Shown: positions 3,700 to 42,031, numbered from the stretch's first letter. The stretch: 64,000 nucleotides of DNA from a virus (IMGVR_UViG_3300028392_000060:9471-73470), one strand, 5' to 3'. Notes: generated by a model not told the origin, from the sequence alone. A program made the numbers and translations.

Positions 3700-4323
3700 T
3701 TAGGATTCCTCTCTTACATCATAAATAGAATAATCATTTACATCTACATCAGCACCATAAGTGGATACTGAAAGTTCATCATTTAACATAGTTTCTAAAT
3801 CATAATTATCGGTTAAAGATACACGCATAATTCCACTTACTTCTATTGTGGCAGAAAACTCTATTTCTTTACTTAGTTCAAGATTAAATAAATCTGCGAT
3901 AGTTGTTAAAGTATCTTGGTCATTACTGTCATCATAAGCGTCAATAATTATGTTATGAAGTGTAACTAACTTGTTGTTGAAATCAGCAACATCACTCTTA
4001 AGTTGACGGGCTTCACGAAGTTTCCACTCTAAATCATTAACTTTATCAGTTTGATAAGTTGTTTCGTTATTCTCAATTATCTTGTAGGTAACGAGTAGGT
4101 TTGGGTTATATTCTGTTGAAATATCCATTTGTTCCTCTTTCTTTGTAGTTGGGTCTATTGTAACATCTACCACCGACATCAGTATCATTTGTGTATCTGT
4201 CATACATTTTGGACACATATCACTTTGTGGAAGTCCATTAGATTTAATAGTCATTACAATATGGCTATCGCAATTTGGGCATACATAATCCCATTTAAAC
4301 CAGGTTTCATTTTTATTTGTCAT
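3700..4323 (-). CDS. hypothetical protein with N-terminal Zn ribbon (possible internal start at 4128)
   Basis: CPNC...CPKC; promoter TTGATT-N17-TAAAAT at 4331-4359. Confidence 0.65.
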   Translation of the reverse strand: MTNKNETWFKWDYVCPNCDSHIVMTIKSNGLPQSDMCPKCMTDTQMILMSVVDVTIDPTTKKEEQMDISTEYNPNLLVTYKIIENNETTYQTDKVNDLEWKLREARQLKSDVADFNNKLVTLHNIIIDAYDDSNDQDTLTTIADLFNLELSKEIEFSATIEVSGIMRVSLTDNYDLETMLNDELSVSTYGADVDVNDYSIYDVREES

Positions 4324-4330
4324 AGCGAGT

Positions 4331-4396
4331 ATTTTAGCAGGTTACTCACGGGTAATCAAACGACACGCCGTAAAACTCAGGGTGATTTTTATCACA
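4331..4396 (-). promoter_or_regulatory. sigma-A-type promoter with WhiA-type GACAC motif and CRP-like box
   Basis: CGGCGTGTCG-t-TTGATT-N17-TAAAAT; GGTGA-N6-TCACA at 4381-4396; TTACTCACGGGTAA in the spacer. Confidence 0.7.
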
Positions 4397-4403
4397 CTCG
4401 TAA

Positions 4404-4433
4404 CGACACGCCCGACCTCGGGGGGCGCGGCCC
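4404..4433. repeat. conserved GC-rich intergenic element, copy 1
   Basis: CGACACGCCCGACCTCGGGGG(G)CGCGGC, near-identical at 5769, 8592 and 9903. Confidence 0.9.
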
Positions 4434-4470
4434 ATGCATAATTATACATTGCAATGCATATTTATACATT
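4433..4470. promoter_or_regulatory. tandem ArgR (ARG box)-like operator
   Basis: CATGCATAATTATACATT-gc-AATGCATATTTATACATT: two 18-bp imperfect palindromes at a 20-bp period. Confidence 0.65.
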
Positions 4471-4479
4471 GAAGCTTTG

Positions 4480-4555
4480 CGATCCGTACGGGATTTGAAC
4501 CCGTGGTCTCTACAGTGACAGTGTAGTGAATTAAACCAAACTATTCTAACGGACC
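4480..4555 (-). tRNA. tRNA-Asp (GTC)
   Basis: Cloverleaf with acceptor GGTCCGT/ACGGATC, anticodon arm CTACA-CTGTCAC-TGTAG, T arm ACGGG-TTCAAAT-CCCGT and discriminator G; followed by CAA, not CCA. Confidence 0.95.
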
Positions 4556-4561
4556 TTGCGG

Positions 4562-4589
4562 TGAGCAGTTTTTACACTTGCTCAGGTGT
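4562..4589 (-). ncRNA. compact H-type pseudoknot motif, copy A
   Basis: ACAC-C-TGAGCA-A-GTGT-AAAAAC-TGCTCA; covaries with copies at 9977 and 10521. Confidence 0.7.
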
Positions 4590-4597
4590 TGCGAATT

Positions 4598-5626
4598 TTA
4601 TTTCGCTAGTGCTAAGACTTGCTTAACAATTTTATTTTTTTCAGCAGTTACAACAGGGTCAAAACCACTTGCGCCTGCCATTAGGCTATCGCCATCTTTT
4701 CGGGCTGTGCGATAATAATCTAGGCGTTCTGTGAGAGCATTTACAACACCCCACGCAGTACCCTTGATATTATTATTGGTAGGCGAATTGTGATAAAGTT
4801 CATCAAGCAATACAACCTTATTTTCCCATTTCTTGATTGAACCCTTTTTGTCCAATTCAGGCTTTGGGTACATCTTGTTAATGATTTCTGAAAACTTTTT
4901 ATCAGTAACAGAAATTGCGAATAGTTCTTGCGCTTGCTTTTCAAATTCATCAGCATATGCGAAAGTTAATCCGAGAGCCTCTCGTGCTTGAGCAATTTTA
5001 CCATCAACAGTTTGTGTATGACGGATTTTGAAACTCTGCTTTGCTTTTTTCATAGCAAAATTAAGAGTGTTTTGGCACATAACACGAACAGGGGTAATAG
5101 CAGATTGAACCGCTACTGAGCCATCGTGTGAAGTCCAAACAATTAGATAAAGTTTTGTTTCATCGTTCACACCTTTAGGGTCTAATACGATTGTGCGGGG
5201 AACGGACATTGTGCCAAACACAACATTGCCACCCTTGAGAGAGCCTGCGCTTTCCCAAAATACATCTTGATTTCCATCGTGTAAGTTATCAGCAAACGAA
5301 AATAATTCCTCGTTTTGAACTTCTTTATAGCGTGAACCTACAACGGAGAGAACATCAGTTTGTCCCGCAGTATAAGGGTTATCACGAATTACAAGTTGAT
5401 TATCCTTGAGAGAGTTCCAATTCTCAGGGAGATAATCAGCAACAGGAGCAAGGCGAACGTTCCAATTAGATAGTTTAGCACCATCTAACATTTGAGCAGT
5501 TGTTACTGCTTCATCTTGATTGAATACCTTATTGGCAAAAGAGTGCCAAGCGGGTACTGTGCGGAGATTTACGGCAAGAGAAACTTCTCCGCCTTCAACC
5601 TCTGATTTATGAGCCAAGTTGGTCAT
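4598..5626 (-). CDS. DUF932 family phage/plasmid protein (TIGR03299-like)
   Basis: Motifs PAWH, LSVVGSRY..VQNEELF.FAD, ESAGSLKGG, SHDGS, TPVRVMCQNTL, IRHT, GTAWG..NALTE..DY. Confidence 0.9.
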   Translation of the reverse strand: MTNLAHKSEVEGGEVSLAVNLRTVPAWHSFANKVFNQDEAVTTAQMLDGAKLSNWNVRLAPVADYLPENWNSLKDNQLVIRDNPYTAGQTDVLSVVGSRYKEVQNEELFSFADNLHDGNQDVFWESAGSLKGGNVVFGTMSVPRTIVLDPKGVNDETKLYLIVWTSHDGSVAVQSAITPVRVMCQNTLNFAMKKAKQSFKIRHTQTVDGKIAQAREALGLTFAYADEFEKQAQELFAISVTDKKFSEIINKMYPKPELDKKGSIKKWENKVVLLDELYHNSPTNNNIKGTAWGVVNALTERLDYYRTARKDGDSLMAGASGFDPVVTAEKNKIVKQVLALAK

Positions 5627-5655
5627 ATGATTTCCTTTCTTTGTTTGTTAAATTG

Positions 5656-5677
5656 AGTATAACATATGGCACCGACA
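5656..5677 (-). promoter_or_regulatory. PafBC/RecA-NDp-type promoter for the DUF932-tRNA unit
   Basis: TGTCGG-tgccatatgt-TATACT. Confidence 0.85.
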
Positions 5678-5726
5678 TTTGTCCACTTTAAATAATCATT
5701 TTAAGACACATTCAACCAATTTTGCG

Positions 5727-5797
5727 TGTGAGAAATATCACAGAGATTTTTTCGGCGTGTCGTAAATGCGACACGCCCGACCTCGGGGGCGCGGCCC
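5727..5797. repeat. CRP-like box, inverted GACAC pair and conserved GC-rich element copy 2
   Basis: TGTGAGAAATATCACA 5727-5742; CGTGTCG-taaatg-CGACACG; element at 5769-5797. Confidence 0.85.
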
Positions 5798-6087
5798 AAA
5801 AATTTAATTTTGTCAAGTCAACACGCAGCTATTTTTTAAATAAAAAAAATATTTTTAATATAACAATAATGGCCACCGTGTAAAATAATTGTGAAAACAC
5901 GTTGACCATTAATTGCATTTTATCCCCTCGTTTAAATATATTTTATAAGATCTTTTGTTTTTCTACAATTTTTCTAGCCTTTGCAGATAACGGTTTACCT
6001 GGGCAGTTCATATGAAAATAAGTTATTAGCATATCTTCTTCATTTGTTGTTGTGGCCCCGCATTTATGGCAGGACCACGATTCTTTT

Positions 6088-6411
6088 TTATTCTTCATCA
6101 GTGTACACGCATTCTGCACAGTCGCATTCCCATGAATGCGGTAGCCATGCGTCTAAGTGATGCGCTTCTGCAATTGCGGATGCGGGAGCACTTTCTTCTC
6201 CACGCCATGACACGCCTTCGGGAAGTTTAATCAAGCGAGAATAATCTTCTTCATGATATGCATCAATTGCATCTAGGCAAGGTTGCACCATTGAAGAGGG
6301 GACGGGTGGGTAGTGATTACCCTTCAAGTGAATTTTTAATTGTGTGCGAATATCTATAGCCATATCCGCTAGATCATTTGCAAAAACACTTCCCATATTA
6401 GTTATCTCCAT
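6088..6411 (-). CDS. hypothetical phage protein (HLxGNHYPPVP...AHHLDAW)
   Basis: ORF track; operon-coupled. Confidence 0.75.
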   Translation of the reverse strand: MEITNMGSVFANDLADMAIDIRTQLKIHLKGNHYPPVPSSMVQPCLDAIDAYHEEDYSRLIKLPEGVSWRGEESAPASAIAEAHHLDAWLPHSWECDCAECVYTDEE

Positions 6412-6682
6412 TTTCTATTGAATCAAACATATTTTGAATTTCTAGGGCTTCATCCGCCATTTTATCAAAGTCCTCACCCATTAGCAAGTGCGACACTCTA
6501 GTAGCGACTACACTAGCAAGTAAAGTAGAATAAGCAAACATCATTTCAGAAATACGATCTAATTTTTCTGAATTACCTTCAGCATAGTCCCAAGCAATTT
6601 CACGAGCAGCATTCATCACTTCAATATCAATTACTGAATCAGCAGTCGCTTCTCTAATTTCAAAGAAAGTAGAAATACTCAT
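6398..6682 (-). CDS. hypothetical protein
   Basis: ORF track; coupled to neighbours. Confidence 0.7.
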   Translation of the reverse strand: MSISTFFEIREATADSVIDIEVMNAAREIAWDYAEGNSEKLDRISEMMFAYSTLLASVVATRVSHLLMGEDFDKMADEALEIQNMFDSIENGDN

Positions 6683-6888
6683 TATTCCACCACCTTTAAT
6701 AATGCGTAAGAATTATTTTCGTTTAATTCATCTAAGATATCTGTTAGTTTAGGAACGATTAACGCCTTAAGCATATCCTCAAGCATAGCCACTTGTTGTT
6801 CATATGGGAGAGATAGTAGACGGCGGGCAGTAGGATTATTTTCATCCAATTCTGTTTCAAACTTTAGCGTGTGAGGGATTTTTACCAT
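6682..6888 (-). CDS. hypothetical protein
   Basis: ORF track; RBS AAAGGA and promoter upstream. Confidence 0.7.
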   Translation of the reverse strand: MVKIPHTLKFETELDENNPTARRLLSLPYEQQVAMLEDMLKALIVPKLTDILDELNENNSYALLKVVE

Positions 6889-6922
6889 TTATTTATTGTC
6901 CTTTTCTTTGTTGGGAGTAGTT

Positions 6923-6944
6923 AGTATATCACGAGCCACCGACA
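6923..6944 (-). promoter_or_regulatory. PafBC/RecA-NDp-type promoter
   Basis: TGTCGG-tggctcgtga-TATACT. Confidence 0.85.
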
Positions 6945-7008
6945 TTAGTTCGGTGGAGAAAGTGTTATCTATGAAATTATTCCATAGTGTATCAAGTTGA
7001 TTATTCAT

Positions 7009-7212
7009 TTATTCCCCTTCGTCATATTCTAGGGACATAGGGAAGGCATCTAGCCCCATAAATCCCATATCTTCTTGATCATAGCACTCAGGGCAGACAT
7101 AGTCATCGCCATATATTTCATATTCATCTACGGAGTAAAAAGTTTCTTTAGCCCCGCATATTTCATAGTATAGACACGCTACTACAAAAATTTCATCTTG
7201 TTGATTTATCAT
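7009..7212 (-). CDS. small acidic Cys-rich protein
   Basis: ORF track 7009..7308; start reassigned to MINQQDE (RBS GAAAGGT) because the upstream part spans the promoter. Confidence 0.65.
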   Translation of the reverse strand: MINQQDEIFVVACLYYEICGAKETFYSVDEYEIYGDDYVCPECYDQEDMGFMGLDAFPMSLEYDEGE

Positions 7213-7243
7213 AAGTTTACCTTTCTTGTTGTTGATATTGGCA

Positions 7244-7265
7244 AGTATAACATAGGGCACCGACA
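7244..7265 (-). promoter_or_regulatory. PafBC/RecA-NDp-type promoter
   Basis: TGTCGG-tgccctatgt-TATACT; CRP-like GGTGA-N6-TCACA at 7294-7309 upstream. Confidence 0.85.
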
Positions 7266-7344
7266 CGATCAAACAACACGCCGCAAAACTCAGGGTGATT
7301 AAAATCACACTCGTAACACGGCGTGTCGGCTTGACAGCCGCGGC

Positions 7345-7377
7345 AAAAAATTTGCAGCTTTTGCAAACTACAAATTT
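7345..7377 (-). terminator. probable intrinsic terminator (similar one at ~8618-8652)
   Basis: Minus strand AAATTTGTAG-loop-CTGCAAATTT ending in a T run. Confidence 0.5.
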
Positions 7378-7502
7378 ATTTTTTTATTTATTCAAATTTA
7401 TTTTTATATTTATTTTTTCTTGAATAAATTTTTTTATTTTTAATTGGTGTTGCCGCATTACTGCGACGCAATTCTTGAATGCGTTTTACTTTTTCCATAA
7501 TT

Positions 7503-7706
7503 TTATTTACCCCCAATTTTACCACCACGATACAAAATTTTTGTATGTAATTTCCCGCTTGGCTCTAATAAATTAACAGTTGCGTATTCATTAGCAAATC
7601 CCCAATCAACAAAACTGCGATAAGAATTTACTGCGTCTAACGCATTATCTAACACCATTGACCAATGCGGTGCTTTGCCATCATAGGCACAAGTTATTTT
7701 GTACAT
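7503..7706 (-). CDS. hypothetical protein
   Basis: ORF track; RBS GGAG. Confidence 0.7.
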   Translation of the reverse strand: MYKITCAYDGKAPHWSMVLDNALDAVNSYRSFVDWGFANEYATVNLLEPSGKLHTKILYRGGKIGGK

Positions 7707-7798
7707 TAGTTATTTCTCCAAACATTTATTGCATAGGGCATAATTATTTGAGAAATAAACACGATAACATCTAACGCATTTGCTTAGTTTAGTTTTCA

Positions 7799-7987
7799 TT
7801 AGTTATTCTCCCAATTCTTGAATAGTTGGTGAAAATCTGCAATTTTTTCCGCAGAAATTTGAGTTGGATTACACTCACAATAATCAAAATCAAAATCTCC
7901 GTCTGGTGATGACCAACCTGTGAAACCTTGACCATAGCACTCAGGGCAAGTTAAAATTTCGGTGATTACTTCTTTTACTTTAGACAT
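7799..7987 (-). CDS. small Zn-ribbon protein (CPEC.G.G...YCECNP)
   Basis: ORF track 7799..8011; start at MSKVKE with RBS GAAAGGA. Confidence 0.7.
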   Translation of the reverse strand: MSKVKEVITEILTCPECYGQGFTGWSSPDGDFDFDYCECNPTQISAEKIADFHQLFKNWENN

Positions 7988-8029
7988 TAGTTGTCCTTTC
8001 TTGTTTGACATTTACACTTTGTTAATTGT

Positions 8030-8051
8030 ATTCTATCACCCACCACCGACA
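8030..8051 (-). promoter_or_regulatory. PafBC/RecA-NDp-type promoter
   Basis: TGTCGG-tggtgggtga-TAGAAT. Confidence 0.8.
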
Positions 8052-8090
8052 AGGTGGCGAGTGTTGAACAGTTATCGCATAAGTAAATCA

Positions 8091-8312
8091 TTACTCATCT
8101 ACTTTGATATAAACAGTTGCGAAAAAATCAGGCTTAGGGTAACCTTCGCCTGTGTAAGTTGGGCGAACTTTACAAGCGAACGCATAAACGCCTTCGCTTA
8201 AACCGCAAATATCTTTTCGCAATTTTGCGTATTGGATAATTCCGTCTTGACCTGTTCGGGCATAAGAACGGCTACGATAGTATTTTCCCTCTAGGGCTTC
8301 TGAGATTAGCAT
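8091..8312 (-). CDS. hypothetical protein
   Basis: ORF track; RBS GAAGGT. Confidence 0.7.
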   Translation of the reverse strand: MLISEALEGKYYRSRSYARTGQDGIIQYAKLRKDICGLSEGVYAFACKVRPTYTGEGYPKPDFFATVYIKVDE

Positions 8313-8419
8313 TATTTGCTACCTTCTTTCTTTGTTGAGTTAATTATAACATTTACCACCGACACGGCAGACTGACGGCGGGTTTCAAGTACGTGTGCCT
8401 TGAATTCATCTAGGTTCAT
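8312..8419 (-). CDS. small hypothetical protein MNLDEFKAHV... (35 aa)
   Basis: 3' part of track ORF 8312..8596; RBS GAAGGT; contains an internal promoter. Confidence 0.55.
   Translation of the reverse strand: MNLDEFKAHVLETRRQSAVSVVNVIINSTKKEGSK
8343..8364 (-). promoter_or_regulatory. PafBC/RecA-NDp-type promoter (intragenic)
   Basis: TGTCGG-tggtaaatgt-TATAAT. Confidence 0.8.
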
Positions 8420-8450
8420 TATTTGACCTTCTTTCTTTCTTGTTATGGCA

Positions 8451-8472
8451 AGTATACCAAAACCCACTGACA
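8451..8472 (-). promoter_or_regulatory. PafBC/RecA-NDp-type promoter
   Basis: TGTCAG-tgggttttgg-TATACT. Confidence 0.85.
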
Positions 8473-8481
8473 TTATTCTAC

Positions 8482-8617
8482 TTACTAGCCAGTAATTCCA
8501 TATTTTGAGACGCTCAAGCGGTGTGATAAATATCACACGACACGCCCGAAAGATGAATTTTAGATGAATTTTAATCCACACGTAATCCACAGACACGCCC
8601 GACCTCGGGGGCGCGGC
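8482..8617. promoter_or_regulatory. dense operator array ending in GC-rich element copy 3
   Basis: TTACT-N4-AGTAA 8482-8495; TTCCATATTTTGAGAC 8496-8511; TGTGA-N6-TCACA 8522-8537; CGACACGCC; (AGATGAATTTT)x2 8551-8572; TAATCCACA x2; element 8592-8617. Confidence 0.75.
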
Positions 8618-8682
8618 AAAAAATTTGCAGCTTTTTAATTCTGCAAATCTTTTTTATTTTTATTTATTTTTATTTATTTTTT

Positions 8683-8796
8683 TTATTTAAAATTTTTAAA
8701 AATTTCTTCAACAATTTTTAACTGTTCATCGTTAAGATGTTCAATTTGAATTGCATCTGCAAATCCAAAAATATCTTTTTGATTTTCATTAGTCAT
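8683..8796 (-). CDS. small hypothetical protein MTNENQKDIFGFADAI... (37 aa)
   Basis: Read by hand; overlaps the stop of the upstream gene. Confidence 0.5.
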   Translation of the reverse strand: MTNENQKDIFGFADAIQIEHLNDEQLKIVEEIFKNFK

Positions 8797-8983
8797 TGAA
8801 ACATGCTTCCCAAAAACGATCCGCATCAAAATTTGGATTATCGTTTTCAAAAATTGTTATGAAACGATTTACCAAACCATTTTCAAATTCATTTGTAAAA
8901 GATGGGCGGGTTTCCAAATTATTTTCTTTTAAATAATCATTAAGGATTTTAGCCGTAGCGATATAAGTTTTTCTAGTCATCAT
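8789..8983 (-). CDS. small protein, MMTRK family paralogue 1
   Basis: ORF track; paralogous to 10012..10191. Confidence 0.75.
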   Translation of the reverse strand: MMTRKTYIATAKILNDYLKENNLETRPSFTNEFENGLVNRFITIFENDNPNFDADRFWEACFND

Positions 8984-9076
8984 TTATTTATTCTCTTCAA
9001 TCTCATCTAGTAGTTCCCAAAGAATTGGCTCTAACGCTTTTGCGCTTTCATCTAATTTTTCTTGTAGTGTTTTCAT
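8984..9076 (-). CDS. small hypothetical protein MKTLQEKLDESAKALEPILWELLDEIEENK
   Basis: Read by hand; exactly fills the gap between adjacent genes. Confidence 0.6.
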   Translation of the reverse strand: MKTLQEKLDESAKALEPILWELLDEIEENK

Positions 9077-9283
9077 TTATTTATAGTATTCCATTTCTGT
9101 TAGTAAGTGAGCATAACCATCTTTATTAGACTTTAGCGATAATTCGCAAGGCTCGCATTTCCATTCATATTTTAATGTTCTACCTGTTCCCAATGTTGCA
9201 ACAGCCCAATGGGTCATTTTACGAGAACACACAGGGCAGTAGCAAGAAATTTCTTGCCCTAGCCCACCAATTTTAATAGTCAT
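9077..9283 (-). CDS. small Zn-ribbon protein
   Basis: CPVC...CEPC. Confidence 0.7.
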   Translation of the reverse strand: MTIKIGGLGQEISCYCPVCSRKMTHWAVATLGTGRTLKYEWKCEPCELSLKSNKDGYAHLLTEMEYYK

Positions 9284-9477
9284 TATTTAACCACGCTTTC
9301 TTTAAATTCTTTTTGATTACAAGTTAAGGCAAGGATTTCACCCTTAGCATTTACGATACGAGCATTTACTATATCGTGTTCATCACTAACATTAGTGATT
9401 TCATTTATTAGGTAATTCTCATTTTTCCAAATAAAGAGACACCCTACGAATAATTTATTTATAAGTGTTAAAGTCAT
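9283..9477 (-). CDS. hypothetical protein
   Basis: ORF track 9283..9495; coupled start at MTLTL. Confidence 0.6.
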   Translation of the reverse strand: MTLTLINKLFVGCLFIWKNENYLINEITNVSDEHDIVNARIVNAKGEILALTCNQKEFKESVVK

Positions 9478-9671
9478 TAGATACACACCACGCATTCACA
9501 CTTAGGGGCATTAACAGATAATAAAATTTTTAACAACGCTTTACGCTGTCCAAAATTTAAGCCATAAGTGGATTTACACCCACCATTATTAAAATCGTGT
9601 ATGATACGATTTTCTAATTCCGCACTAATATTTAGTGCCTTACCTATATTTATTTTATTTAGTGTAGTCAT
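9477..9671 (-). CDS. hypothetical protein
   Basis: ORF track; RBS GAAAGGTGG; WhiA-type promoter upstream. Confidence 0.7.
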   Translation of the reverse strand: MTTLNKINIGKALNISAELENRIIHDFNNGGCKSTYGLNFGQRKALLKILLSVNAPKCECVVCI

Positions 9672-9706
9672 CTTAGACCACCTTTCTTTATTGTTTAACT
9701 ATCGTT

Positions 9707-9747
9707 AGTTTAGCAGACTTTCTGCCGAAAATCAAGGCGACACGCCG
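9707..9747 (-). promoter_or_regulatory. sigma-A-type promoter with WhiA-type motif
   Basis: CGGCGTGTCGCC-TTGATT-N17-TAAACT. Confidence 0.7.
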
Positions 9748-9860
9748 TAGATTTCTAACTTTTTTTTCTATATTTAATTTTCTATAATGGAATTGTAACA
9801 TAAAAAATCGCTACTGTCTAGTATACTCGTGAGTAGTCTCAATATATGGAGCGTGGGCTT

Positions 9861-9929
9861 TGTGATAAAAATCACAAAGATTTTTTTAATCGTACGTAAA
9901 TGCGACACGCCCGACCTCGGGGGCGCGGC
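9861..9929. repeat. CRP/Rex-like box and GC-rich element copy 4
   Basis: TGTGATAAAAATCACA 9861-9876; element 9903-9929. Confidence 0.85.
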
Positions 9930-9935
9930 GAAAAA

Positions 9936-9949
9936 CGAACAGATGTTCG
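9936..9949. promoter_or_regulatory. LexA (SOS) box, Gram-positive/actinobacterial type
   Basis: CGAACAGATGTTCG matches CGAAC-N4-GTTCG. Confidence 0.8.
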
Positions 9950-9976
9950 CATTAAAAAAATAGCTGTAAAAAAAAT

Positions 9977-10005
9977 TAAGCAGTTTTAAAACTTACTTAG
10001 GTTTT
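9977..10005 (-). ncRNA. compact pseudoknot motif, copy C
   Basis: AAAAC-C-TAAGTA-A-GTTTT-AAAAC-TGCTTA. Confidence 0.65.
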
Positions 10006-10011
10006 TATTTT

Positions 10012-10191
10012 TTAAACGTTTAAATTTTTAAAACACTCTTCCCAAAATCTATCGCTATCAAATCTTTCGTTATCAGCGAAAAACATTTCGGAAAAATCAT
10101 TTACTAAATCTTCAAACACTTCTAATTTCATTTCGCCACCATAAGAATTTAAAATCTCTGCGGTTGCTACGTAGTCTTTTCTTGTCATCAT
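10012..10191 (-). CDS. small protein, MMTRK family paralogue 2 (59 aa)
   Basis: Read by hand: MMTRKDYVATAEILNSY...FFADNERFDSDRFWEECFKNLNV; RBS AAAGGA. Confidence 0.8.
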   Translation of the reverse strand: MMTRKDYVATAEILNSYGGEMKLEVFEDLVNDFSEMFFADNERFDSDRFWEECFKNLNV

Positions 10192-10317
10192 TTTTGTTCT
10201 TTTCCTTTTCTTTAGTTAATAGATTAAGTGGGGCATAGGTTGATTACGGAGACTTACTCGCACTCTTGCCTTAAGACTCAGCGAAGCCCGACCCACTTAA
10301 TTATATTTATTATAGCA

Positions 10318-10488
10318 TTACTTAGATGTTTTAACCATTGCTAAACGCTTTGAGCCATTTGCTAAAGTTAAACCAACACGAGTTACTTTGTTAGAAATTG
10401 GAGCGAAAGAATTTATTCGTCCAGTAATTCCAGTTGTTGATGTTGTGAATAAATCACCGATTTGGTAAGTGTATCCTTGTATTGTCAT
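10318..10488 (-). CDS. small beta-rich protein, TYQIGDLFTT family paralogue 1 (56 aa)
   Basis: Read by hand: MTIQGYTYQIGDLFTTSTTGITGRI...; RBS AAAGGA. Confidence 0.8.
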   Translation of the reverse strand: MTIQGYTYQIGDLFTTSTTGITGRINSFAPISNKVTRVGLTLANGSKRLAMVKTSK

Positions 10489-10520
10489 TTATTTTATATC
10501 CTTTTCTTTTGTTGGGTTGT

Positions 10521-10549
10521 TGAGCAGTTTTATATCTTGCTCAGGATAT
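10521..10549 (-). ncRNA. compact pseudoknot motif, copy B
   Basis: ATATC-C-TGAGCA-A-GATAT-AAAAC-TGCTCA. Confidence 0.7.
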
Positions 10550-10568
10550 TTAGGGTATTTCCCTAAAC

Positions 10569-10733
10569 TTATGCGAGTGAAACTGTTGTGTAACGCTCTG
10601 TTCCATCAACATCAAGCAGAACACGAGTTAGTGTTTTGCTAATTGGTTCAATAGCCTTGATAACGCCTGTTACCTTGCTTTTTTGTGTAGTGAATAAATC
10701 ACCGATTTGGTAAGTCTTGTTATTTATAGTCAT
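10569..10733 (-). CDS. small beta-rich protein, TYQIGDLFTT family paralogue 2 (54 aa)
   Basis: Read by hand: MTINNKTYQIGDLFTTQKSKVTGVI...; RBS AAAGGA. Confidence 0.8.
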   Translation of the reverse strand: MTINNKTYQIGDLFTTQKSKVTGVIKAIEPISKTLTRVLLDVDGTERYTTVSLA

Positions 10734-10765
10734 TTTTTTCCTTTTCTTTTGTTGTTGTTAGTGAT

Positions 10766-10787
10766 AGTCTACCATAGACTACCGACA
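10766..10787 (-). promoter_or_regulatory. PafBC/RecA-NDp-type promoter
   Basis: TGTCGG-tagtctatgg-TAGACT. Confidence 0.8.
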
Positions 10788-10795
10788 TTTGCTTT

Positions 10796-10981
10796 CTATC
10801 TTTGATTTAATAAAGATTTACAACCTGCGAAGGGGCATCTTATATGTTGCGCCCTATGGATTTTATAAGTATATTTTCCGACATTAGAAAGGCGGGGGCT
10901 ATGGTGAGTGCTACCATAAGCGGGGGCGGGAATTAGTAGTGCTATTAGAATTACTATAACTATTCTTTTAATCATTTCCAC
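10796..10981 (-). CDS. small secreted/membrane hypothetical protein
   Basis: Signal-peptide-like N terminus. Confidence 0.5.
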   Translation of the reverse strand: MEMIKRIVIVILIALLIPAPAYGSTHHSPRLSNVGKYTYKIHRAQHIRCPFAGCKSLLNQR

Positions 10982-11075
10982 CCCTTAACTTCTTTAGCCA
11001 TATAGTAAAACATCATACCAAAGAAAGGCAAAGATATCAACATTATAGCCCGTAGGGCATAGGTGAGATATATCA

Positions 11076-11258
11076 CTAGAGTACCTCATCTATATCAAAA
11101 TTATCTACGGCTAGAAAGACATCTGCCATTTCATCAGCGTCAGATTTAGCCTCTGCTAATTCATCTAACATAGTATCAAAGGTATCGGCAAGTGTTTCCC
11201 ACTTGTCTGTCTTTCTATCAAACGAATATGAGTAAGTCATTATTTGACCCCCGCACAA
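11076..11258 (-). CDS. small acidic hypothetical protein
   Basis: ORF track; likely start MTYSY at 11240. Confidence 0.6.
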   Translation of the reverse strand: MCGGQIMTYSYSFDRKTDKWETLADTFDTMLDELAEAKSDADEMADVFLAVDNFDIDEVL

Positions 11259-11383
11259 TTCATATTGCCACTTCCGAGAGTAGCATAAGCAGAAAGTGGT
11301 CTACCATTTTGATAGATGATTTTTTCACTACAACGAGAGCAGGTTGTAACCTGTTCGGTAGGTTGAGTAGGATTGTGTAACAT
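11240..11383 (-). CDS. small Cys-containing hypothetical protein
   Basis: 3' part of track ORF 11240..11473; RBS GAGGT before MLHNPT. Confidence 0.55.
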   Translation of the reverse strand: MLHNPTQPTEQVTTCSRCSEKIIYQNGRPLSAYATLGSGNMNCAGVK

Positions 11384-11444
11384 ATTAGTTACCTCTATTC
11401 TTTTAATTAGATTGAGAACCTTTCTCAATTTCTTTAATACTGTA

Positions 11445-11484
11445 ATTATAGCACACAAAATCGGAAAAGTCAAGCGACACGCCG
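11445..11484 (-). promoter_or_regulatory. strong sigma-A-type promoter with WhiA-type motif
   Basis: CGGCGTGTCGC-TTGACT-N17-TATAAT. Confidence 0.8.
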
Positions 11485-17737: not shown

Positions 17738-19675
17738 ATGATGTCTAACACTATTAAAAACCCATATGAAAATTTTATTGCACTTTCTCGCTACGCCCGT
17801 TGGCTAGAAGAAGAAAATCGTCGTGAAACTTGGGGTGAAACAGTAGACCGATACTTTAAGTTTATGGTTATACAGTTACGTGAAAAACATGGGTATGTTC
17901 CTAATGATAAAATTCTTACAGAATTGCGTGATGCAGTTTTTAATCGTAATGTAATGCCATCAATGCGTTCTGTAATGACAGCAGGAGTAGCGTTAGAAAG
18001 AGAAAATGTTTCTGGATATAACTGTGCATTTCTTCCAGTAGATAATGCTAGATCATTTGATGAAGCTATGTATATCTTAATGTGTGGAACTGGTGTTGGA
18101 TTTTCTGTTGAGTATAAGTATATTAATAAACTCCCGCCACTTCCTGAAACGCTTGAAAAATCTTCTACTACAGTTATTGTAGGAGATTCAAAAGAAGGTT
18201 GGGCAAAAGCATATCGTGAATTTTTAGGATTACTTTGGGCAGGACAAATTCCACAAATTGATGTTAGTAAAGTTCGCCCTGCAGGTGCACGTCTTAAAAC
18301 AATGGGCGGAAGATCATCTGGTCCACAACCATTGGTTAATCTTTTTGATTTTACAGTACAAATATTTAAGGGAGCGCTTGGTCGCAGCCTTAAACCAATT
18401 GAATGTCATGACATTATGTGTAAAGTTGGAGAGGTTGTAGTTGTTGGCGGTGTTCGTCGTTCTGCAATGATATCTCTTTCAAATATAAACGATATTGAAA
18501 TGGCAGCAGCAAAATCTGGAAATTGGTGGGAAAAAAATTCTCAAAGATCTTTGTCAAATAATTCAGTTGCATATTCTCGCAAACCAGAAATGGCTCAATT
18601 TATTGCAGAATGGAAATCTTTATATGATTCTAAATCAGGAGAAAGAGGGATTTATAATGTTGCCGCAGCACAATCTCAAGCCGCAAAATATGGAAGAAGA
18701 AGTGCTGATATACATTATGGAACTAACCCATGTTCTGAAATTATTTTAAGACCATATCAATTTTGTAATCTTTCAGAAGTTGTTCTTCGTGAAAAAGATA
18801 CAGTTGATGATGTTGCAAATAAAGTTCGTCTTGCATCTATTTTGGGTACATGGCAATCAACACTTACAGACTTTAAATACATTCGTAAAATTTGGAAAGA
18901 CAATACAGAAGAAGAACGTTTACTTGGAGTTTCTTTAACTGGCCAATTTGGGCATAAGTTTTTTTCAGGACAAGAGGGAACAGAAAAACTTTCTTTAGTA
19001 CTTGACAGACTTCGTATGCTTGCGGTTGAAACAAATGTTGAAGAAGCAGAGAAAATTGGGATTCCATCTTCAGCAGCAGTAACTTGTGTTAAACCATCAG
19101 GCACAGTATCTCAATTGGTCGGGGTAAGTTCAGGAATGCACCCATGGCATTCAGATTATTATATTAGAACTGTAAGAGGTTCTAAAAATGATCCTATTTC
19201 ACAATTTTTAAAAGACTCTGGAATTCCAACAGAAGATGATGTAATGAAACCAAATGAAACATATGTATTTTCATTTCCAGTAAAATCTCCATCACATGCT
19301 ATTACTAGAAATAAATTAACAGCATTACAACAACTTGAAATTTGGCTAACATATCAAAGACATTGGTGTGAACACAAACCATCTATAACCGTATCTGTAA
19401 AAGAAGAAGAATGGATGGAAGTAGGCGCTTGGGTTTATAAGCATTTTGATGAAGTTTCTGGAATATCATTTTTACCATATTCTGAGCATACATATGTTCA
19501 AGCTCCTTATCAAGAAATTGAAAAAGAACAATACTTGGCTCTTGAAGAAAAAATGCCTAAAAATATTGATTGGAATGCATTGTCTTTATACGAACTGGAA
19601 GATTCTACAACTGGGTCTCAAGCTCTAGCTTGCGTAAGCGGAGAATGTGAAATTGTAGATATTGGTCAAAATTGA
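17738..19675 (+). CDS. nrdJ: class II (adenosylcobalamin-dependent) ribonucleotide reductase
   Basis: YNCAF, GGVRRSA, GTNPCSEI, CVKPSGTVSQL and C-terminal CVSGEC redox pair. Confidence 0.95.
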   Translation: MMSNTIKNPYENFIALSRYARWLEEENRRETWGETVDRYFKFMVIQLREKHGYVPNDKILTELRDAVFNRNVMPSMRSVMTAGVALERENVSGYNCAFLPVDNARSFDEAMYILMCGTGVGFSVEYKYINKLPPLPETLEKSSTTVIVGDSKEGWAKAYREFLGLLWAGQIPQIDVSKVRPAGARLKTMGGRSSGPQPLVNLFDFTVQIFKGALGRSLKPIECHDIMCKVGEVVVVGGVRRSAMISLSNINDIEMAAAKSGNWWEKNSQRSLSNNSVAYSRKPEMAQFIAEWKSLYDSKSGERGIYNVAAAQSQAAKYGRRSADIHYGTNPCSEIILRPYQFCNLSEVVLREKDTVDDVANKVRLASILGTWQSTLTDFKYIRKIWKDNTEEERLLGVSLTGQFGHKFFSGQEGTEKLSLVLDRLRMLAVETNVEEAEKIGIPSSAAVTCVKPSGTVSQLVGVSSGMHPWHSDYYIRTVRGSKNDPISQFLKDSGIPTEDDVMKPNETYVFSFPVKSPSHAITRNKLTALQQLEIWLTYQRHWCEHKPSITVSVKEEEWMEVGAWVYKHFDEVSGISFLPYSEHTYVQAPYQEIEKEQYLALEEKMPKNIDWNALSLYELEDSTTGSQALACVSGECEIVDIGQN

Positions 19676-28880: not shown

Positions 28881-31103
28881 ATGGCAATTCAACCATTTGA
28901 AATTACAGGCAATTTAACAGTAGATGGAAATTATAAAAACCCTGTTGTAACTAATCCATTATTTGTTGCAGTATCAAACTCAACAACAGCCGTATCATCA
29001 ACAGATAGCATAACCTGGACGTTACGTACTATGCCATCATCTGCAAATTGGAGTTCAATAACCTATGGCAATGGAGTATTTGTTGCAATAGCAGGATCTC
29101 CATCAACCTCAGCAGCCTCATCAATTGATGGAATAACATGGTCTTTAAGAACTATGCCGTCATCTGCAAATTGGATAGCAGTAACTTATGGCAATGGAGT
29201 ATTTGCTGCAGTAACATTTAGTTCATCATCAGCAGCCTCATCAACTGATGGCATTACTTGGTCTTTAAGAACTTTGCCAGTAGCTGCAGGTTGGCAATCA
29301 GTAACTTATGGCAATGGAGTATTTTTTGTAGTAGTATATGCCTCTACAACAGCAGCTTCATCAACTGATGGTATAACTTGGGCCTTACGTACTTTGCCAT
29401 CATCTGCAGCATGGTATTCAGTAACTTACGGCAATGGAGTATTTGCTGCAGTAGCAAATAGCTCAAACTCAGCCGCCTCATCAACCAATGGCGTAACTTG
29501 GACATTACGCACTTTGCCAGTATCTGCAACCTGGTATTCAGTAACTTATGGCAACGGAGTATTTGCTGCAGTAACAAACAGCTCAACAGCAGCAGCTTCA
29601 TCAACTGATGGCATAACTTGGTCCTTACGTACTTTGCCATCATCTCCAGCATGGTATTCAGTAACTTACGGCAATGGAGTATTTGCTGCAGTAGCAAATA
29701 GCTCAACAGCAGCAGCTTCATCAACCAATGGTATTACTTGGGCCTTACGTACTTTGCCATCAACTGCAACTTGGCAATCAGTAACCTATGGCATTTCAAC
29801 TCAAATTAATTTAGTTCCTGCATCTACTTTAATCCCAAATAATCAAAATGTAACTTCTAACATTCAAACACAATTAAATGCATTAGCACCTTTAAATAAC
29901 CCAACATTAACATCTGCAAGTTTAATATCAAGTAATTTACAAAGTAATGTATTTGCTGCAGTAGCACAATCCTCAACCTCAGCAGCTTCATCAACCGATG
30001 GTATAACATGGACTCTAAGAACTATGCCATCATCTACAACTTGGATAGCAGTAACTTATGGCAATGGAGTATTTGCTGCAGTAGCATATAGCTCAACAGC
30101 AGCAGCTTCATCAACCGATGGTATTACTTGGGCCTTACGCACTTTGCCAGCATCTGCAATTTGGGTTTCAATATCTTATGGCAATGGAGTATTTGCTGCA
30201 GTAGCACAAAGCTCAACCTCAGCCGCCTCATCAACCAATGGCGTAACTTGGACATTACGCACTTTGCCATCATCTGCAACTTGGCAATCATTAGCTTATG
30301 GCAATGGAGTATTTGTTGCAGTAGCACTTAGCACAACAGCAGCAGCTTCATCAACCGATGGTATTACTTGGGCCTTACGTACTCTGCCATCATCTACAGG
30401 TGCAGTAACTTATGGCAATGGAGTATTTGCTGCAGTATCAAATGGCACATCATCAGCAGCCTCATCAACTGATGGTATAACCTGGACGTTACGTACTATG
30501 CCATCAGCTACAGCATGGTTTTCAGTAACTTACGGCAACGGAGTATTTGCTGCAGTAGCAAATAGCTCAACAACAGCAGCCTCATCAACCAATGGCATAA
30601 CATGGACTCTAAGAACTTTGCCAGTATCTGCAAATTGGTATTCAGTAACTTATGGCAATGGAGTATTTGCTGCAGTTGTACAAGGTTCAACTTCGGCAGC
30701 CTCATCAACTGATGGAATAACATGGTCTTTAAGAACTATGCCAGTATCTGTATTTTGGCAATCAGTAACTTCAGCACCAACCCAATTTTCAATAAATTCA
30801 CAATCAATTCAAGGGCAATATGTAGGCCCAATTACAACTCCAACATATACTGTAGGGCCATATGATAAATATATAACTATTAATACAACAGCAACGCATA
30901 CTATAACCCTTCCCGCCCCAGGTTTATATCCAAATAGAGAAATAACAATAAAACAAATTGCTGCGTTTACTGTTGTTTCCGCATCTTCTAACGTAATTCC
31001 GCTTACATCAAATACGGCGGGAACTGCAATACTTTCTGGATTAGGTAAATTTGCAACATTAATATCTGACGGTTATAACTGGATAATAAGGGAATCTAAT
31101 TAA
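28881..31103 (+). CDS. Asp-box-like beta-propeller repeat protein 1 (2x7 repeats)
   Basis: 14 copies of a ~40-aa unit W.SVTYGNGVFAAVA.SST.AASSTDGITW.LRTLP. Confidence 0.85.
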   Translation: MAIQPFEITGNLTVDGNYKNPVVTNPLFVAVSNSTTAVSSTDSITWTLRTMPSSANWSSITYGNGVFVAIAGSPSTSAASSIDGITWSLRTMPSSANWIAVTYGNGVFAAVTFSSSSAASSTDGITWSLRTLPVAAGWQSVTYGNGVFFVVVYASTTAASSTDGITWALRTLPSSAAWYSVTYGNGVFAAVANSSNSAASSTNGVTWTLRTLPVSATWYSVTYGNGVFAAVTNSSTAAASSTDGITWSLRTLPSSPAWYSVTYGNGVFAAVANSSTAAASSTNGITWALRTLPSTATWQSVTYGISTQINLVPASTLIPNNQNVTSNIQTQLNALAPLNNPTLTSASLISSNLQSNVFAAVAQSSTSAASSTDGITWTLRTMPSSTTWIAVTYGNGVFAAVAYSSTAAASSTDGITWALRTLPASAIWVSISYGNGVFAAVAQSSTSAASSTNGVTWTLRTLPSSATWQSLAYGNGVFVAVALSTTAAASSTDGITWALRTLPSSTGAVTYGNGVFAAVSNGTSSAASSTDGITWTLRTMPSATAWFSVTYGNGVFAAVANSSTTAASSTNGITWTLRTLPVSANWYSVTYGNGVFAAVVQGSTSAASSTDGITWSLRTMPVSVFWQSVTSAPTQFSINSQSIQGQYVGPITTPTYTVGPYDKYITINTTATHTITLPAPGLYPNREITIKQIAAFTVVSASSNVIPLTSNTAGTAILSGLGKFATLISDGYNWIIRESN

Positions 31104-33328: not shown

Positions 33329-33329
33329 T

Positions 33330-37390: not shown

Positions 37391-37729
37391 ATGAGCAAAA
37401 TGAAAGTAACACCTATTGATGAGGTAAATTGGGGTCTATACGCCTGGATGATGCCAGATGAAACACTTGTTATGGATGAAGAAGGTGGATATTTAAGTAT
37501 TCCTTCTATGAAAGGCGATATCCGTCAAATAAAAAAACTTAAAGATGCAGCAAAGCACTACGGCTTAGAGGATGGTCATCCAGTATTTTTTGCGGGGCAT
37601 AGACCAGTAGACAATGAAGAACTTGAAACGCAAAAACAAAGAATGGAATTGGGTCTTGTACCAGATGTTATGGACACTCCAGCAATGCTTGAATATTATA
37701 AAGAAATGAAAGAGATGAAAATTGGCTAA
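37391..37729 (+). CDS. hypothetical protein preceding portal
   Basis: ORF track; overlaps the portal start. Confidence 0.7.
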   Translation: MSKMKVTPIDEVNWGLYAWMMPDETLVMDEEGGYLSIPSMKGDIRQIKKLKDAAKHYGLEDGHPVFFAGHRPVDNEELETQKQRMELGLVPDVMDTPAMLEYYKEMKEMKIG

Positions 37730-39302: not shown

Positions 39303-39304
39303 AA

Positions 39305-40171: not shown

Positions 40172-40518
40172 AGTTAAAACATCATTTTAAGTTTAATATA
40201 TCAGATGCAAAACAGCTTGGAATCGCTCTTATAAGCTCGTATGGAATGTGGGCAGCTACTGGGTTTCAAAAAAGCATTACAGGCTTAATGTATCCAATAA
40301 TGGGGTTTGTTACTGGAGGTTTGGCTTCCCACCATAGCACCTCTAGTCCAAATATTTTGCCAGAAAATCATATTGAAACCCCTTATGTAAACAATATAAA
40401 TGATGGAAATAAAGGGTCTCCAATGACAAATACAGAAATAAAAACATATGCTCCCGAAGTTGCGGATGTAAAAAAAGTCATTAAAATAAACAGCAATATT
40501 ATAAAAAATATTAGTTAA
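40168..40518 (+). CDS. membrane protein, possible holin
   Basis: Two short hydrophobic segments; overlaps the endolysin stop. Confidence 0.45.
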   Translation: MKLKHHFKFNISDAKQLGIALISSYGMWAATGFQKSITGLMYPIMGFVTGGLASHHSTSSPNILPENHIETPYVNNINDGNKGSPMTNTEIKTYAPEVADVKKVIKINSNIIKNIS

Positions 40519-40560
40519 AATTATGAGTTAGTTATAAATCCTGCTATTATTTATTTACAT

Positions 40561-41997: not shown

Positions 41998-42031
41998 AAA
42001 AATATAAAAAAACAAGGTGGTGAAATAATAA

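What the first reader, a model, noticed from the sequence alone, without database searches (positions are those of the whole stretch)
4562..10549. Three-copy compact RNA pseudoknot with compensatory changes
Seen (minus strand): P1a-C-P2a-A-P1b-AAAA(A)C-P2b. P1 is ACAC/GTGT (4562-4589), ATATC/GATAT (10521-10549) and AAAAC/GTTTT (9977-10005). P2 is TGAGCA/TGCTCA twice and TAAGTA/TGCTTA once. P1 sequence varies while pairing is retained, which is strong evidence for selection on RNA structure. Each copy lies within ~20 nt after a stop codon; one precedes the tRNA and one precedes an RBS. Inference: an exoribonuclease roadblock, an antitermination signal, a small-ligand aptamer, or a mimic of pseudoknotted type III antitoxin RNA. 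I cannot assign it to a known family.
Basis: partly seen in the sequence, partly recalled or inferred. Interest (0 to 1): 0.78.

Follow-up and report, generated by a model that had tools for sequence, protein, structure and literature searches.

The report
Gene-end RNA pseudoknot of phages
The three repeats are real copies of a tiny, very conserved knotted RNA fold that phages of many bacterial groups place a few bases after a gene's stop codon; no RNA catalogue lists it, and it probably seals the end of the upstream message, though this is untested.

Summary
Observation confirmed. All three minus-strand sites (4562-4589, 9977-10005, 10521-10549) fit one gapless 28-29 nt H-type pseudoknot: NNNC-C-URAGYA-A-GNNN-N-AAAAC-UGCUYA.

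P1 was not in the search pattern, yet it pairs in nearly every pattern-selected copy, using 26 different stem sequences. P2 shows compensatory variants. G.U is tolerated, A.C is almost absent, and copies never lie on both strands of one locus, so this is RNA on the gene-sense strand. No Rfam 15 family matches, even at E<=10.

New context:
- The gap from stop codon to P1 core has a sharp floor of 5 nt (90 of 104 nearby cases at 5-9 nt). That puts the knot at the mRNA entrance of a terminating ribosome.
- It precedes the first tRNA of an array (39/68) but never an internal one (0/16).
- No neighbouring protein family is shared.
- CRISPR spacers target it.
- Three cultured phages carry it.

Best reading (about 0.4): a ribosome-compatible cistron-end cap that stops 3'-to-5' decay. 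This scan found the same motif earlier in at least seven other genomes.

The parts
4562..4589 (-). Pseudoknot copy A. P1a 4589-4586, L1 C 4585, P2a 4584-4579, junction A 4578, P1b 4577-4574, L3 4573-4568, P2b 4567-4562.
   Evidence: Sequence; exact pattern match; covariance model 42.6 bits, E 2.9e-11.
9977..10005 (-). Pseudoknot copy C. It has a 5-bp P1. P2 carries a G-C to A-U swap and a U.G wobble.
   Evidence: Sequence; pattern match; covariance model 48.3 bits.
10521..10549 (-). Pseudoknot copy B, with a 5-bp P1.
   Evidence: Sequence; pattern match; covariance model 50.9 bits. The orthologous site in locus L014 has the same flanks but a different, still complementary, P1.
4598..5626 (-). 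Upstream gene of copy A (342 aa, DUF932 / phrog_1221). Its TAA stop ends 8 nt before the P1 core.
   Evidence: ORF; families.
4479..4555 (-). tRNA-Asp(GTC) gene, starting 6 nt after copy A.
   Evidence: ARAGORN; Rfam tRNA, 62.8 bits.
10012..10191 (-). Upstream gene of copy C (59 aa). Its stop ends 7 nt before the P1 core.
   Evidence: ORF; sequence.
10569..10733 (-). Upstream gene of copy B (54 aa). Its stop lies 20 nt before the P1 core.
   Evidence: ORF; sequence.
10550..10567 (-). Small hairpin (UUAGGG-AAAUA-CCCUAA) between the stop codon and copy B. It is also present at the orthologous site in L014.
   Evidence: Read from the sequence.
10318..10488 (-). Downstream gene of copy B (56 aa). 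Its ATG lies 32 nt after the knot.
   Evidence: ORF; sequence.
9931..9950 (-). Terminator-like hairpin (5-bp stem, then T5), 27 nt after copy C. Seen by eye; the scan does not list it.
   Evidence: Sequence.

Best explanation
The element is a self-contained RNA pseudoknot of about 28 nt, transcribed as part of phage messages. It has a 4-5 bp variable stem P1, a one-base loop (C), a 6-bp conserved stem P2, one junction base, and an A-rich loop ending in AAAC that should lie in the P1 groove.

Shown:
- Both stems are under selection.
- The RNA is the gene-sense strand.
- The element is anchored to the end of the upstream gene, and its first base pair starts no closer than 5 nt after the stop codon.

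Inferred:
- At 5-9 nt the knot sits just outside the mRNA channel of a terminating ribosome, so it stays folded on a translated message.
- After the transcript is cut further downstream, the knot would stop 3'-to-5' exonucleases. The cut would come from RNase P at the 5' end of the next tRNA, or from an endonuclease in the U-rich stretch that often follows.
- The knot would thereby cap and stabilise the upstream cistron without acting as a transcription terminator.
For: Structure (shown):
- Among 117 non-redundant IMG/VR copies chosen only by a pattern that says nothing about P1, the base 5' of the core is C in 117/117. The next pairs are Watson-Crick in 117/117 and 116/117. There are 26 different P1a triplets.
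- Among sites that meet only the loop and junction letters, are not of the canonical P2 sequence, and have a paired P1, 33 of 35 have at least 5 of 6 P2 pairs. When P1 is unpaired the figure is 4 of 81 (Fisher p 3.6e-22).
- On a 114-sequence alignment that was itself selected for pairing, the covariation score is 0.502 against 0.175 for shuffles (0 of 500 reach it) and at most 0.096 for slid partners.

Strand:
- At one P2 position there are 25 U.G against 92 C-G. At another there are 6 G.U against 1 A.C.
- 112 of 118 copies are co-oriented with the local ORFs.
- There are 175 copies in 1.14 Mb of viral loci and 0 on the reversed control. No locus has copies on both strands.

Gene-end anchoring:
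- Of 104 copies whose upstream ORF (>=50 aa) ends within 12 nt of the P1 core, 90 have a gap of 5-9 nt and 2 have a gap of 0-4 nt.
- The distance to the next ORF start is broad (quartiles 34, 154 and 253 nt).
- The bacterial mRNA channel holds 11 nt after the first P-site base (passage read in PMC7282821). A 5-nt gap therefore puts the first pair at the channel entrance when the stop codon is in the A site.

Boundary with processing sites:
- 29 of 118 copies lie 1-12 nt before a tRNA gene.
- A knot precedes 39 of 68 first or solitary tRNAs and 0 of 16 internal ones (p 1.1e-5).

Downstream sequence and terminators:
- Directly after the knot, G is 2-4% at +1 and +2 and C is 36-38%.
- T reaches 48-52% at +5 and +6. 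TTTT occurs within 12 nt in 46 of 187 copies.
- Only 12 of 188 copies have a terminator-like hairpin within 120 nt downstream.

Other:
- No protein family is shared by more than 41 of 115 loci. This argues against a dedicated, locally encoded protein partner.
Against: - There are no RNA-end or half-life data.
- An ordinary hairpin would also stop 3' exonucleases, so this reading does not explain why P2, both short loops and AAAC are nearly invariant across phyla.
- Copy C is followed by a terminator-like hairpin. The tiny-ORF loci in bacterial MAGs have terminators 20-40 nt after the knot. In those places a 3' cap would be redundant.
- The nested part of the fold is only modestly stable: -4.3 to -8.9 kcal/mol, with z-scores of -1.2 to -5.1.
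- The first-tRNA-only rule and the gene-end position fit a ribosome barrier or a downstream-protecting barrier equally well.
- About 36% of the viral loci belong to one clade, so the copies are not fully independent.
Confidence: 0.4

Rival explanations
1. It acts on the ribosome. A knot parked at the mRNA entrance while the stop codon is in the A site could tune termination. It could also block read-through, post-termination sliding or re-initiation into the following tRNA or cistron.
For: - The gap has a sharp 5-nt floor and peaks at exactly 5 nt (36 of 104).
- This matches the distance at which structures touch the mRNA entry channel and hinder A-site binding (passages in PMC7282821).
- The A-rich loop over P1 is the build of frameshift-type knots that resist ribosomal unwinding (recalled).
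- The knot is absent between tRNAs (0/16).
- In tiny-ORF loci the stop codon is the URA of P2a itself.
Against: - About a quarter of copies lie more than 20 nt from any ORF end, among them copy B of this window.
- There is no ORF to read into: a tRNA follows within 12 nt in 29 of 118 copies.
- A floor at 5 nt is also what simple avoidance of unwinding predicts.
Confidence: 0.2
2. It is a recognition or cleavage signal for a conserved RNase or RNA-binding protein. One example is RNase P cutting in loop 1 of a tRNA-acceptor-like stacked helix. It would mark where long messages are cut.
For: - The near-invariant sequence across phages of many phyla suggests a universal partner.
- A small H-type pseudoknot with a 3' RCCA is cut by bacterial RNase P in loop 1 (abstract of PMC12710915).
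- CCA is the commonest triplet after the final A (14 of 117).
- P2 stacked on P1 gives 10-11 pairs, close to a 12-bp acceptor/T arm (inference).
Against: - RCCA is absent in 103 of 117 copies and in all three window copies.
- Loop 1 is a single C.
- No neighbouring protein family is shared.
- No cleavage data exist.
Confidence: 0.15
3. It is a 5'-to-3' barrier in the manner of viral xrRNAs. It would stop RNase J or 5'-end-dependent decay and so protect the RNA downstream.
For: - It is a compact knot at a boundary, and it precedes the first tRNA or the next cistron.
- The coremin xrRNA is similarly small and sequence-conserved (abstract of PMC6546385).
Against: - Known frameshifter pseudoknots do not stall Xrn1 (abstract of PMC10321173).
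- The element is tightly spaced from the upstream stop but loosely from what follows.
- tRNAs lose their leader to RNase P anyway.
- RNase J is missing from many hosts (recalled).
Confidence: 0.1
4. It is a transcription signal acting through RNA polymerase: antitermination, a pause, or a weak terminator.
For: - Copy C lies 27 nt before a terminator-like hairpin.
- A T-rich stretch follows many copies (46 of 187 have TTTT within 12 nt).
- Terminator-like hairpins are enriched downstream (12/188 against 10/578; p 0.002).
Against: - 176 of 188 copies have no nearby terminator.
- A tRNA starts 1-12 nt after 29 copies, which leaves no room for a new promoter.
- It occurs in T7-like, T4-like and siphovirus-type phages with different polymerases.
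Confidence: 0.06
5. It is a small-ligand aptamer (riboswitch), a type III antitoxin mimic, or a DNA-level protein site.
For: - Its size and topology resemble the preQ1-I aptamer (recalled).
- TGAGCA / TGCTCA is an inverted repeat.
Against: - No Rfam hit, including the preQ1 families.
- Neighbouring genes are diverse.
- The junction base varies.
- No tandem array.
- P1 covaries, and G.U is tolerated on one strand only. A double-stranded DNA site would not show either.
Confidence: 0.05

Closest known systems
Autoregulatory pseudoknot of the gene 32 message of T-even phages
   Same: It is a phage intercistronic RNA and a classical H-type knot. A single base in loop 1 crosses a 6-7 bp stem 2, and a longer loop crosses stem 1. 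This geometry is recalled. For PMC3014915 I saw only the search listing and the start of the abstract, and my one attempt to read passages failed. For PMC535899 I saw the search listing and the start of the abstract.
   Different: That knot has one copy per genome, lies upstream of the SSB gene and is bound by gp32. Ours is dispersed (up to 7 copies in 14 kb) and follows unrelated genes. It has a different, cross-phylum conserved sequence and no shared neighbouring protein.
Compact luteovirus-type -1 frameshift pseudoknots
   Same: About 28 nt, a short loop 1, an unpaired junction base and an A-rich loop over stem 1 (recalled). The gap from the A-site codon is also the same, 5-9 nt.
   Different: Ours follows a stop codon, not a slippery heptamer. 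There is no overlapping ORF, and a tRNA follows 29 of 118 copies.
Coremin motif / xrRNA-C of plant RNA viruses
   Same: It is a very small, sequence-conserved viral RNA element. It stalls an exonuclease and also ribosomes (abstracts of PMC6546385 and PMC10321173). This is a possible functional analogue.
   Different: Coremin is defined by two hairpins of 3 and 4 bp, a YGAD loop and a conserved 10-nt spacer. It blocks the eukaryotic 5'-to-3' enzyme Xrn1. Ours has interleaved 4-5 and 6 bp stems, a different sequence, bacterial hosts and gene-end anchoring. It is not a member.
Small pseudoknot substrates of RNase P
   Same: An H-type knot of similar size whose stacked stems imitate a tRNA acceptor arm. 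It is cut in loop 1 (abstract of PMC12710915).
   Different: That cleavage needs a 3' RCCA. Only 14 of 117 copies have CCA after the last A, and none of the three window copies does.
preQ1-I riboswitch aptamer
   Same: A 30-35 nt H-type knot with a variable P1, a conserved short P2 and an A-rich 3' loop (recalled).
   Different: No Rfam match at E<=10. It has no link to queuosine or any other gene class. It follows genes rather than leading one, and its junction has one variable base, which leaves no evident pocket.
3' stabilising hairpins of bacterial and phage messages (terminator, REP and T7 RNase III-site hairpins)
   Same: The proposed job is the same: a structure left at the 3' end after processing that stops 3' exonucleases (recalled).
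   Different: Those are plain hairpins with no cross-phylum sequence conservation. This is a knotted fold with about 17 fixed bases.

Membership tests
Any Rfam 15 family | Covariance-model match at the family's gathering score, or at least at E<=10 | tested here: not met
   On the whole window, only tRNA reaches a gathering score. At E<=10 on the three sites, no hit overlaps the motif.
Classical H-type pseudoknot (fold class) | Two interleaved helices, each supported by covariation, with loops long enough to cross the grooves | tested here: met
   P1: 117/117 and 116/117 Watson-Crick, with 26 stem variants. P2: 33/35 against 4/81. The order P1a-L1-P2a-J-P1b-L3-P2b is read from the alignment. 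Folding in solution was not tested.
Coremin / xrRNA-C | Two separate hairpins of 3 and 4 bp; a YGAD loop on the first; a conserved 10-nt spacer (abstract of PMC6546385) | tested here: not met
   The stems are 4-5 and 6 bp and interleave, and no 10-nt spacer is present. The letters UGAG occur but are paired in P2.
Coremin / xrRNA-C | Stalls a 5'-to-3' exoribonuclease | not testable with these tools
   This needs an enzyme assay.
-1 programmed frameshift stimulator | A slippery heptamer 5-9 nt upstream and an overlapping -1 ORF downstream | tested here: not met
   A stop codon occupies that place in 90 of 104 nearby cases. A tRNA gene follows within 12 nt in 29 of 118. No formal scan for heptamers was run.
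Type III antitoxin RNA (ToxI-like) | A tandem array of repeats next to a toxin gene | tested here: not met
   No tandem repeat covers the sites. Copies are 544 and 5415 nt apart. A ToxN-type gene was not searched for.
preQ1-I riboswitch | Match to the Rfam model; position in the 5' leader of queuosine-related genes | tested here: not met
   No Rfam hit. No such family appears among 56 downstream or 52 upstream bacterial neighbours.
RNase P pseudoknot substrate | An unpaired RCCA directly 3' of the knot (abstract of PMC12710915) | tested here: not met
   CCA follows the last A in 14 of 117 copies and in none of the three window copies. Cleavage itself is not testable here.
Intrinsic terminator | A G+C-rich hairpin immediately followed by a U-tract; end of the transcription unit | tested here: not met
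   P2 has 3 G-C pairs. TTTT occurs within 12 nt in only 46 of 187 copies. tRNA genes start 1-12 nt after 29 copies.
Gene 32-type autoregulatory pseudoknot | Lies in the leader of the phage SSB gene and is bound by that protein | tested here: inconclusive
   No SSB family appears among the neighbours tallied. The viral neighbours were clustered but not named. Binding is not testable here.

The most novel reading that the evidence does not exclude
Phages across at least six bacterial phyla share one uncatalogued 28-nt 'cistron-end' pseudoknot, whose distance from the stop codon is set by the ribosome footprint. It would be a bacterial-world counterpart of viral exonuclease-resistant RNAs. It would work either by blocking 3'-to-5' decay or by engaging the terminating ribosome. 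Its fixed sequence would reflect a special tertiary fold or a universal host partner.
Probability: 0.35. Interest if true: 0.85.

Novelty: new variant of a known kind. Interest (0 to 1): 0.75.

Why it matters
If the function holds, this would be a general, portable 'full stop' for bacterial and phage messages. It is 28 nt long, works next to a translating ribosome, does not terminate transcription and has been kept across phyla.

That would explain how long phage transcripts are divided into separately stable pieces. It would open the question of exonuclease-resistant RNAs in bacteria. It would also give synthetic biology a very small insulator or stabiliser.

Its strict conservation is costly. 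One CRISPR array carries at least three spacers against it. This points to strong functional constraint.

The motif is directly testable, because three cultured phages carry it.

Tried and rejected
Nothing was laid, so these shares are no evidence of expression or habitat.
- Megablast of window 4000-11000 against cultured phages found no match.
- PHROGs on eight ORFs next to the copies hit only phrog_1221.
- A literature search for the motif letters returned only primers and unrelated sequences.
- Searches for a described phage or bacterial knot of this kind found none.
  - Passages read in two 2026 genome-language-model preprints do not describe it.
  - The IMG/VR catalogue of 8,495 candidate RNAs (PMC10690425; passages read) may contain it.
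- A generic pseudoknot scan with no sequence constraints was too noisy to use: 5,168 hits in 1.1 Mb.
- Neighbouring proteins: no common Pfam family, and no cluster in more than 41 of 115 loci.
- Streptomyces phage Beuffert, the closest cultured relative by portal protein (53.6% identity), has no copy. Its best model hit is 11 bits.
- NCBIfam on the 20-aa ORF found nothing.
- A backup-stop idea was considered and dropped. The in-frame position of the knot's own URA is the least used gap class (gap 7: 8 cases).
- Read-through was dropped because nothing lies downstream to read.

Full report
**What is there.** On the minus strand, the three sites read as one gapless motif: a 4-5 nt P1a ending in C; one C; P2a URAGYA; one junction base; P1b starting with G; a 6-nt stretch ending in AAAAC; and P2b UGCUYA. 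The core pattern matches exactly three times in the window. Shuffles average 0.12 matches, and 0 of 100 reach three. The whole 73.5-kb virus record has the same three, all on the reverse strand, and none for the backwards control. A covariance model built later scores them at 42.6-50.9 bits, while the next window hit scores 10.3 bits. The window therefore holds exactly three copies.

**It is a large family.** The scan of one genome per prokaryotic species found 88 contigs.

**P1 is under selection.** The search pattern says nothing about P1, so P1 is a fair test. Among 117 non-redundant viral copies:
- The base before the core is C in 117/117.
- The next two pairs are Watson-Crick in 117/117 and 116/117.
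- The fourth pair is Watson-Crick or G.U in 102/117.
- A fifth pair forms in 66/117.

There are 26 different P1a triplets. The site orthologous to copy B in locus L014 keeps its flanks but has a different, still complementary, P1.

**P2 is under selection too.** I looked in the same loci for sites that keep only the loop and junction letters. With P1 paired and a non-canonical P2, 33 of 35 have at least 5 of 6 P2 pairs. With P1 unpaired, 4 of 81 do (p 3.6e-22). The variants include double compensatory changes. On a 114-sequence alignment, the covariation score is 0.502 against 0.175 for shuffles (0 of 500 reach it) and at most 0.096 for slid partners. That alignment was chosen for pairing, so its paired percentage is not independent evidence.

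**It is RNA, on the gene-sense strand.**
- G.U is common where A.C would appear on the other strand: 25 U.G and 6 G.U against 1 A.C.
- 112 of 118 copies are co-oriented with the local ORFs.
- A family-wide definition finds 175 copies in 1.14 Mb of viral loci and none on reversed sequence. No locus has copies on both strands.
- Nested folding recovers only P2, at -4.3 to -8.9 kcal/mol, as expected for a knot.

**It is not catalogued.** Rfam 15 gives only the tRNA at gathering score. Nothing overlaps the motif at E<=10. My literature searches found no description (passages). The supplementary tables of the IMG/VR RNA catalogue (PMC10690425) were closed and may list it.

**This scan has found the same motif before.** At least seven earlier reports on other genomes describe it. 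I treated those as leads and retested the claims.

**Context.**
- The element is tied to the end of the upstream gene. Of 104 copies whose upstream ORF (>=50 aa) ends within 12 nt of the P1 core, the gaps are 5 nt (36), 6 (19), 7 (8), 8 (17) and 9 (10). Only two are at 0-4 nt. In three, the stop codon is the URA of P2a itself. The stop codons are TAA 80, TAG 15 and TGA 9.
- The distance to the next ORF is broad.
- The bacterial mRNA channel holds 11 nt beyond the first P-site base, and structures 11-12 nt from the P-site codon sit at the channel entrance (passages in PMC7282821). A 5-nt gap thus puts the first pair at the entrance when the stop codon is in the A site. This link is my inference.
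- 29 of 118 copies lie 1-12 nt before a tRNA gene, 25 of them tRNA-Asp.
- A knot precedes 39 of 68 first or solitary tRNAs but 0 of 16 internal ones (p 1.1e-5). The loci were chosen for having knots, which inflates the first figure but not the contrast.
- After the knot, G is nearly absent at +1 and +2. A T-rich stretch follows.
- Terminator-like hairpins follow within 120 nt in 12 of 188 copies, against 10 of 578 control positions.

**Who carries it.**
- The window's phage has a portal 53-54% identical to those of Streptomyces phages. One of these, Beuffert, has no copy.
- About a third of the IMG/VR loci (up to 41 of 115) share proteins with the window's early region. No protein cluster is more widespread.
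- The model finds one copy each (34-44 bits) in cyanophage S-RIM4 (T4-like), Mycobacterium phage Labelle and Paracoccus phage ParMal1 (T7-like). In each, the copy lies 6-10 nt after an annotated gene end.
- Bacterial hits span Saccharibacteria, Aminicenantes, Clostridia, Lactobacillus, Fusobacterium, cyanobacteria and others. 70 non-redundant copies pass a P1 filter. Their neighbours are mostly unnamed or phage-like, with no common family.
- Three of the bacterial hits lie inside CRISPR arrays. One array of at least 55 repeats has at least three spacers holding the knot.

**How it most likely works.** The fixed letters cluster at the junction of the two stems and in the two groove-crossing loops. 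This is typical of compact knots that rely on tertiary contacts (recalled), so the conservation may be structural. The knot stays just clear of terminating ribosomes, marks message-to-tRNA boundaries and is not a terminator. From this I favour a cistron-end cap against 3'-to-5' decay after downstream cleavage (about 0.4).

The rivals, with my estimates, are:
- an effect on the terminating ribosome (0.2);
- a recognition or cleavage site, for example for RNase P (0.15; abstract of PMC12710915);
- a 5'-to-3' barrier (0.1; weakened by the report that frameshifter knots do not stall Xrn1, abstract of PMC10321173);
- a transcription signal (0.06);
- an aptamer, antitoxin mimic or DNA site (0.05 together).

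None of these was tested directly.

**Comparison with known systems.** In fold it is closest to the gene 32 knot of T-even phages and to luteovirus-type frameshift knots (both recalled). In proposed job it is closest to 3' stabilising hairpins and, loosely, to the coremin xrRNA. It does not meet coremin's defining two-hairpin, YGAD-loop architecture (abstract of PMC6546385). It is a new RNA family built on a known kind of fold.

Noticed in passing
window 4361-11483, mostly minus strand: The 9-mer GGCGTGTCG occurs 9 times (0.03 expected; 0 of 100 shuffles reach 9) and is also in 46 related loci. In several places it sits 1-2 nt upstream of a -35-like TTGAYT, with a -10-like box 17 nt further on (for example 11483-11445 and 4369-4331). 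It is probably a promoter-linked element of this phage clade's early region.
   Followed up: partly
window near 4412, 5777 and 9911 (minus strand): A G+C-rich module (GCCGCGCCCCCGAGGTCGGGCGTGTCG) is repeated three times. It is followed by palindromes of the type TGTGAT-N5-ATCACA, which look like operator sites.
   Followed up: no
loci L121, L123, L140, L141, L149, L173, L175, L183, L189, L201 (Aminicenantes and other MAGs): A stand-alone tiny gene with its own promoter-like boxes, RBS and terminator. It encodes a peptide of about 20 aa, M..(V/I)PR.AHC(S)EGC...S. Its last codons and stop codon are P1a, loop 1 and the URA of the pseudoknot. Synonymous differences between loci indicate real coding. 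NCBIfam gave no match for three of them.
   Followed up: partly
L184:2500-6300, L197:6300-7000, L136:5980-6096: CRISPR arrays whose spacers contain the pseudoknot. L184 has at least 55 repeats and at least three such spacers, one of them a non-canonical variant. L197 (Fusobacterium) has 10 repeats.
   Followed up: partly
loci L022, L061, L104 (and similar in L036, L067, L083), 10-30 nt after the knot: A DnaA-box-like word (TTATCCACA, or GTCGTCCACAG) follows the knot in several relatives. It is not seen after the window's copies.
   Followed up: no
window 28881-35558, plus strand: Three back-to-back ORFs of 740, 741 and 742 aa, probably tandem paralogues. The first has weak EPTP / PAD_N Pfam matches. 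Only the first was scanned.
   Followed up: no
window 17738-19675 and 37722-43180, plus strand: A class II-like ribonucleotide reductase, a portal, a prohead protease and a major capsid protein. The portal is 53-54% identical to those of Streptomyces phages of Stanwilliamsviridae.
   Followed up: partly
loci with a tRNA after the knot (for example L013, L023, L065, L089): A short hairpin followed by an A-run often lies just upstream of the knot. The window's copy B has a similar arrangement.
   Followed up: no
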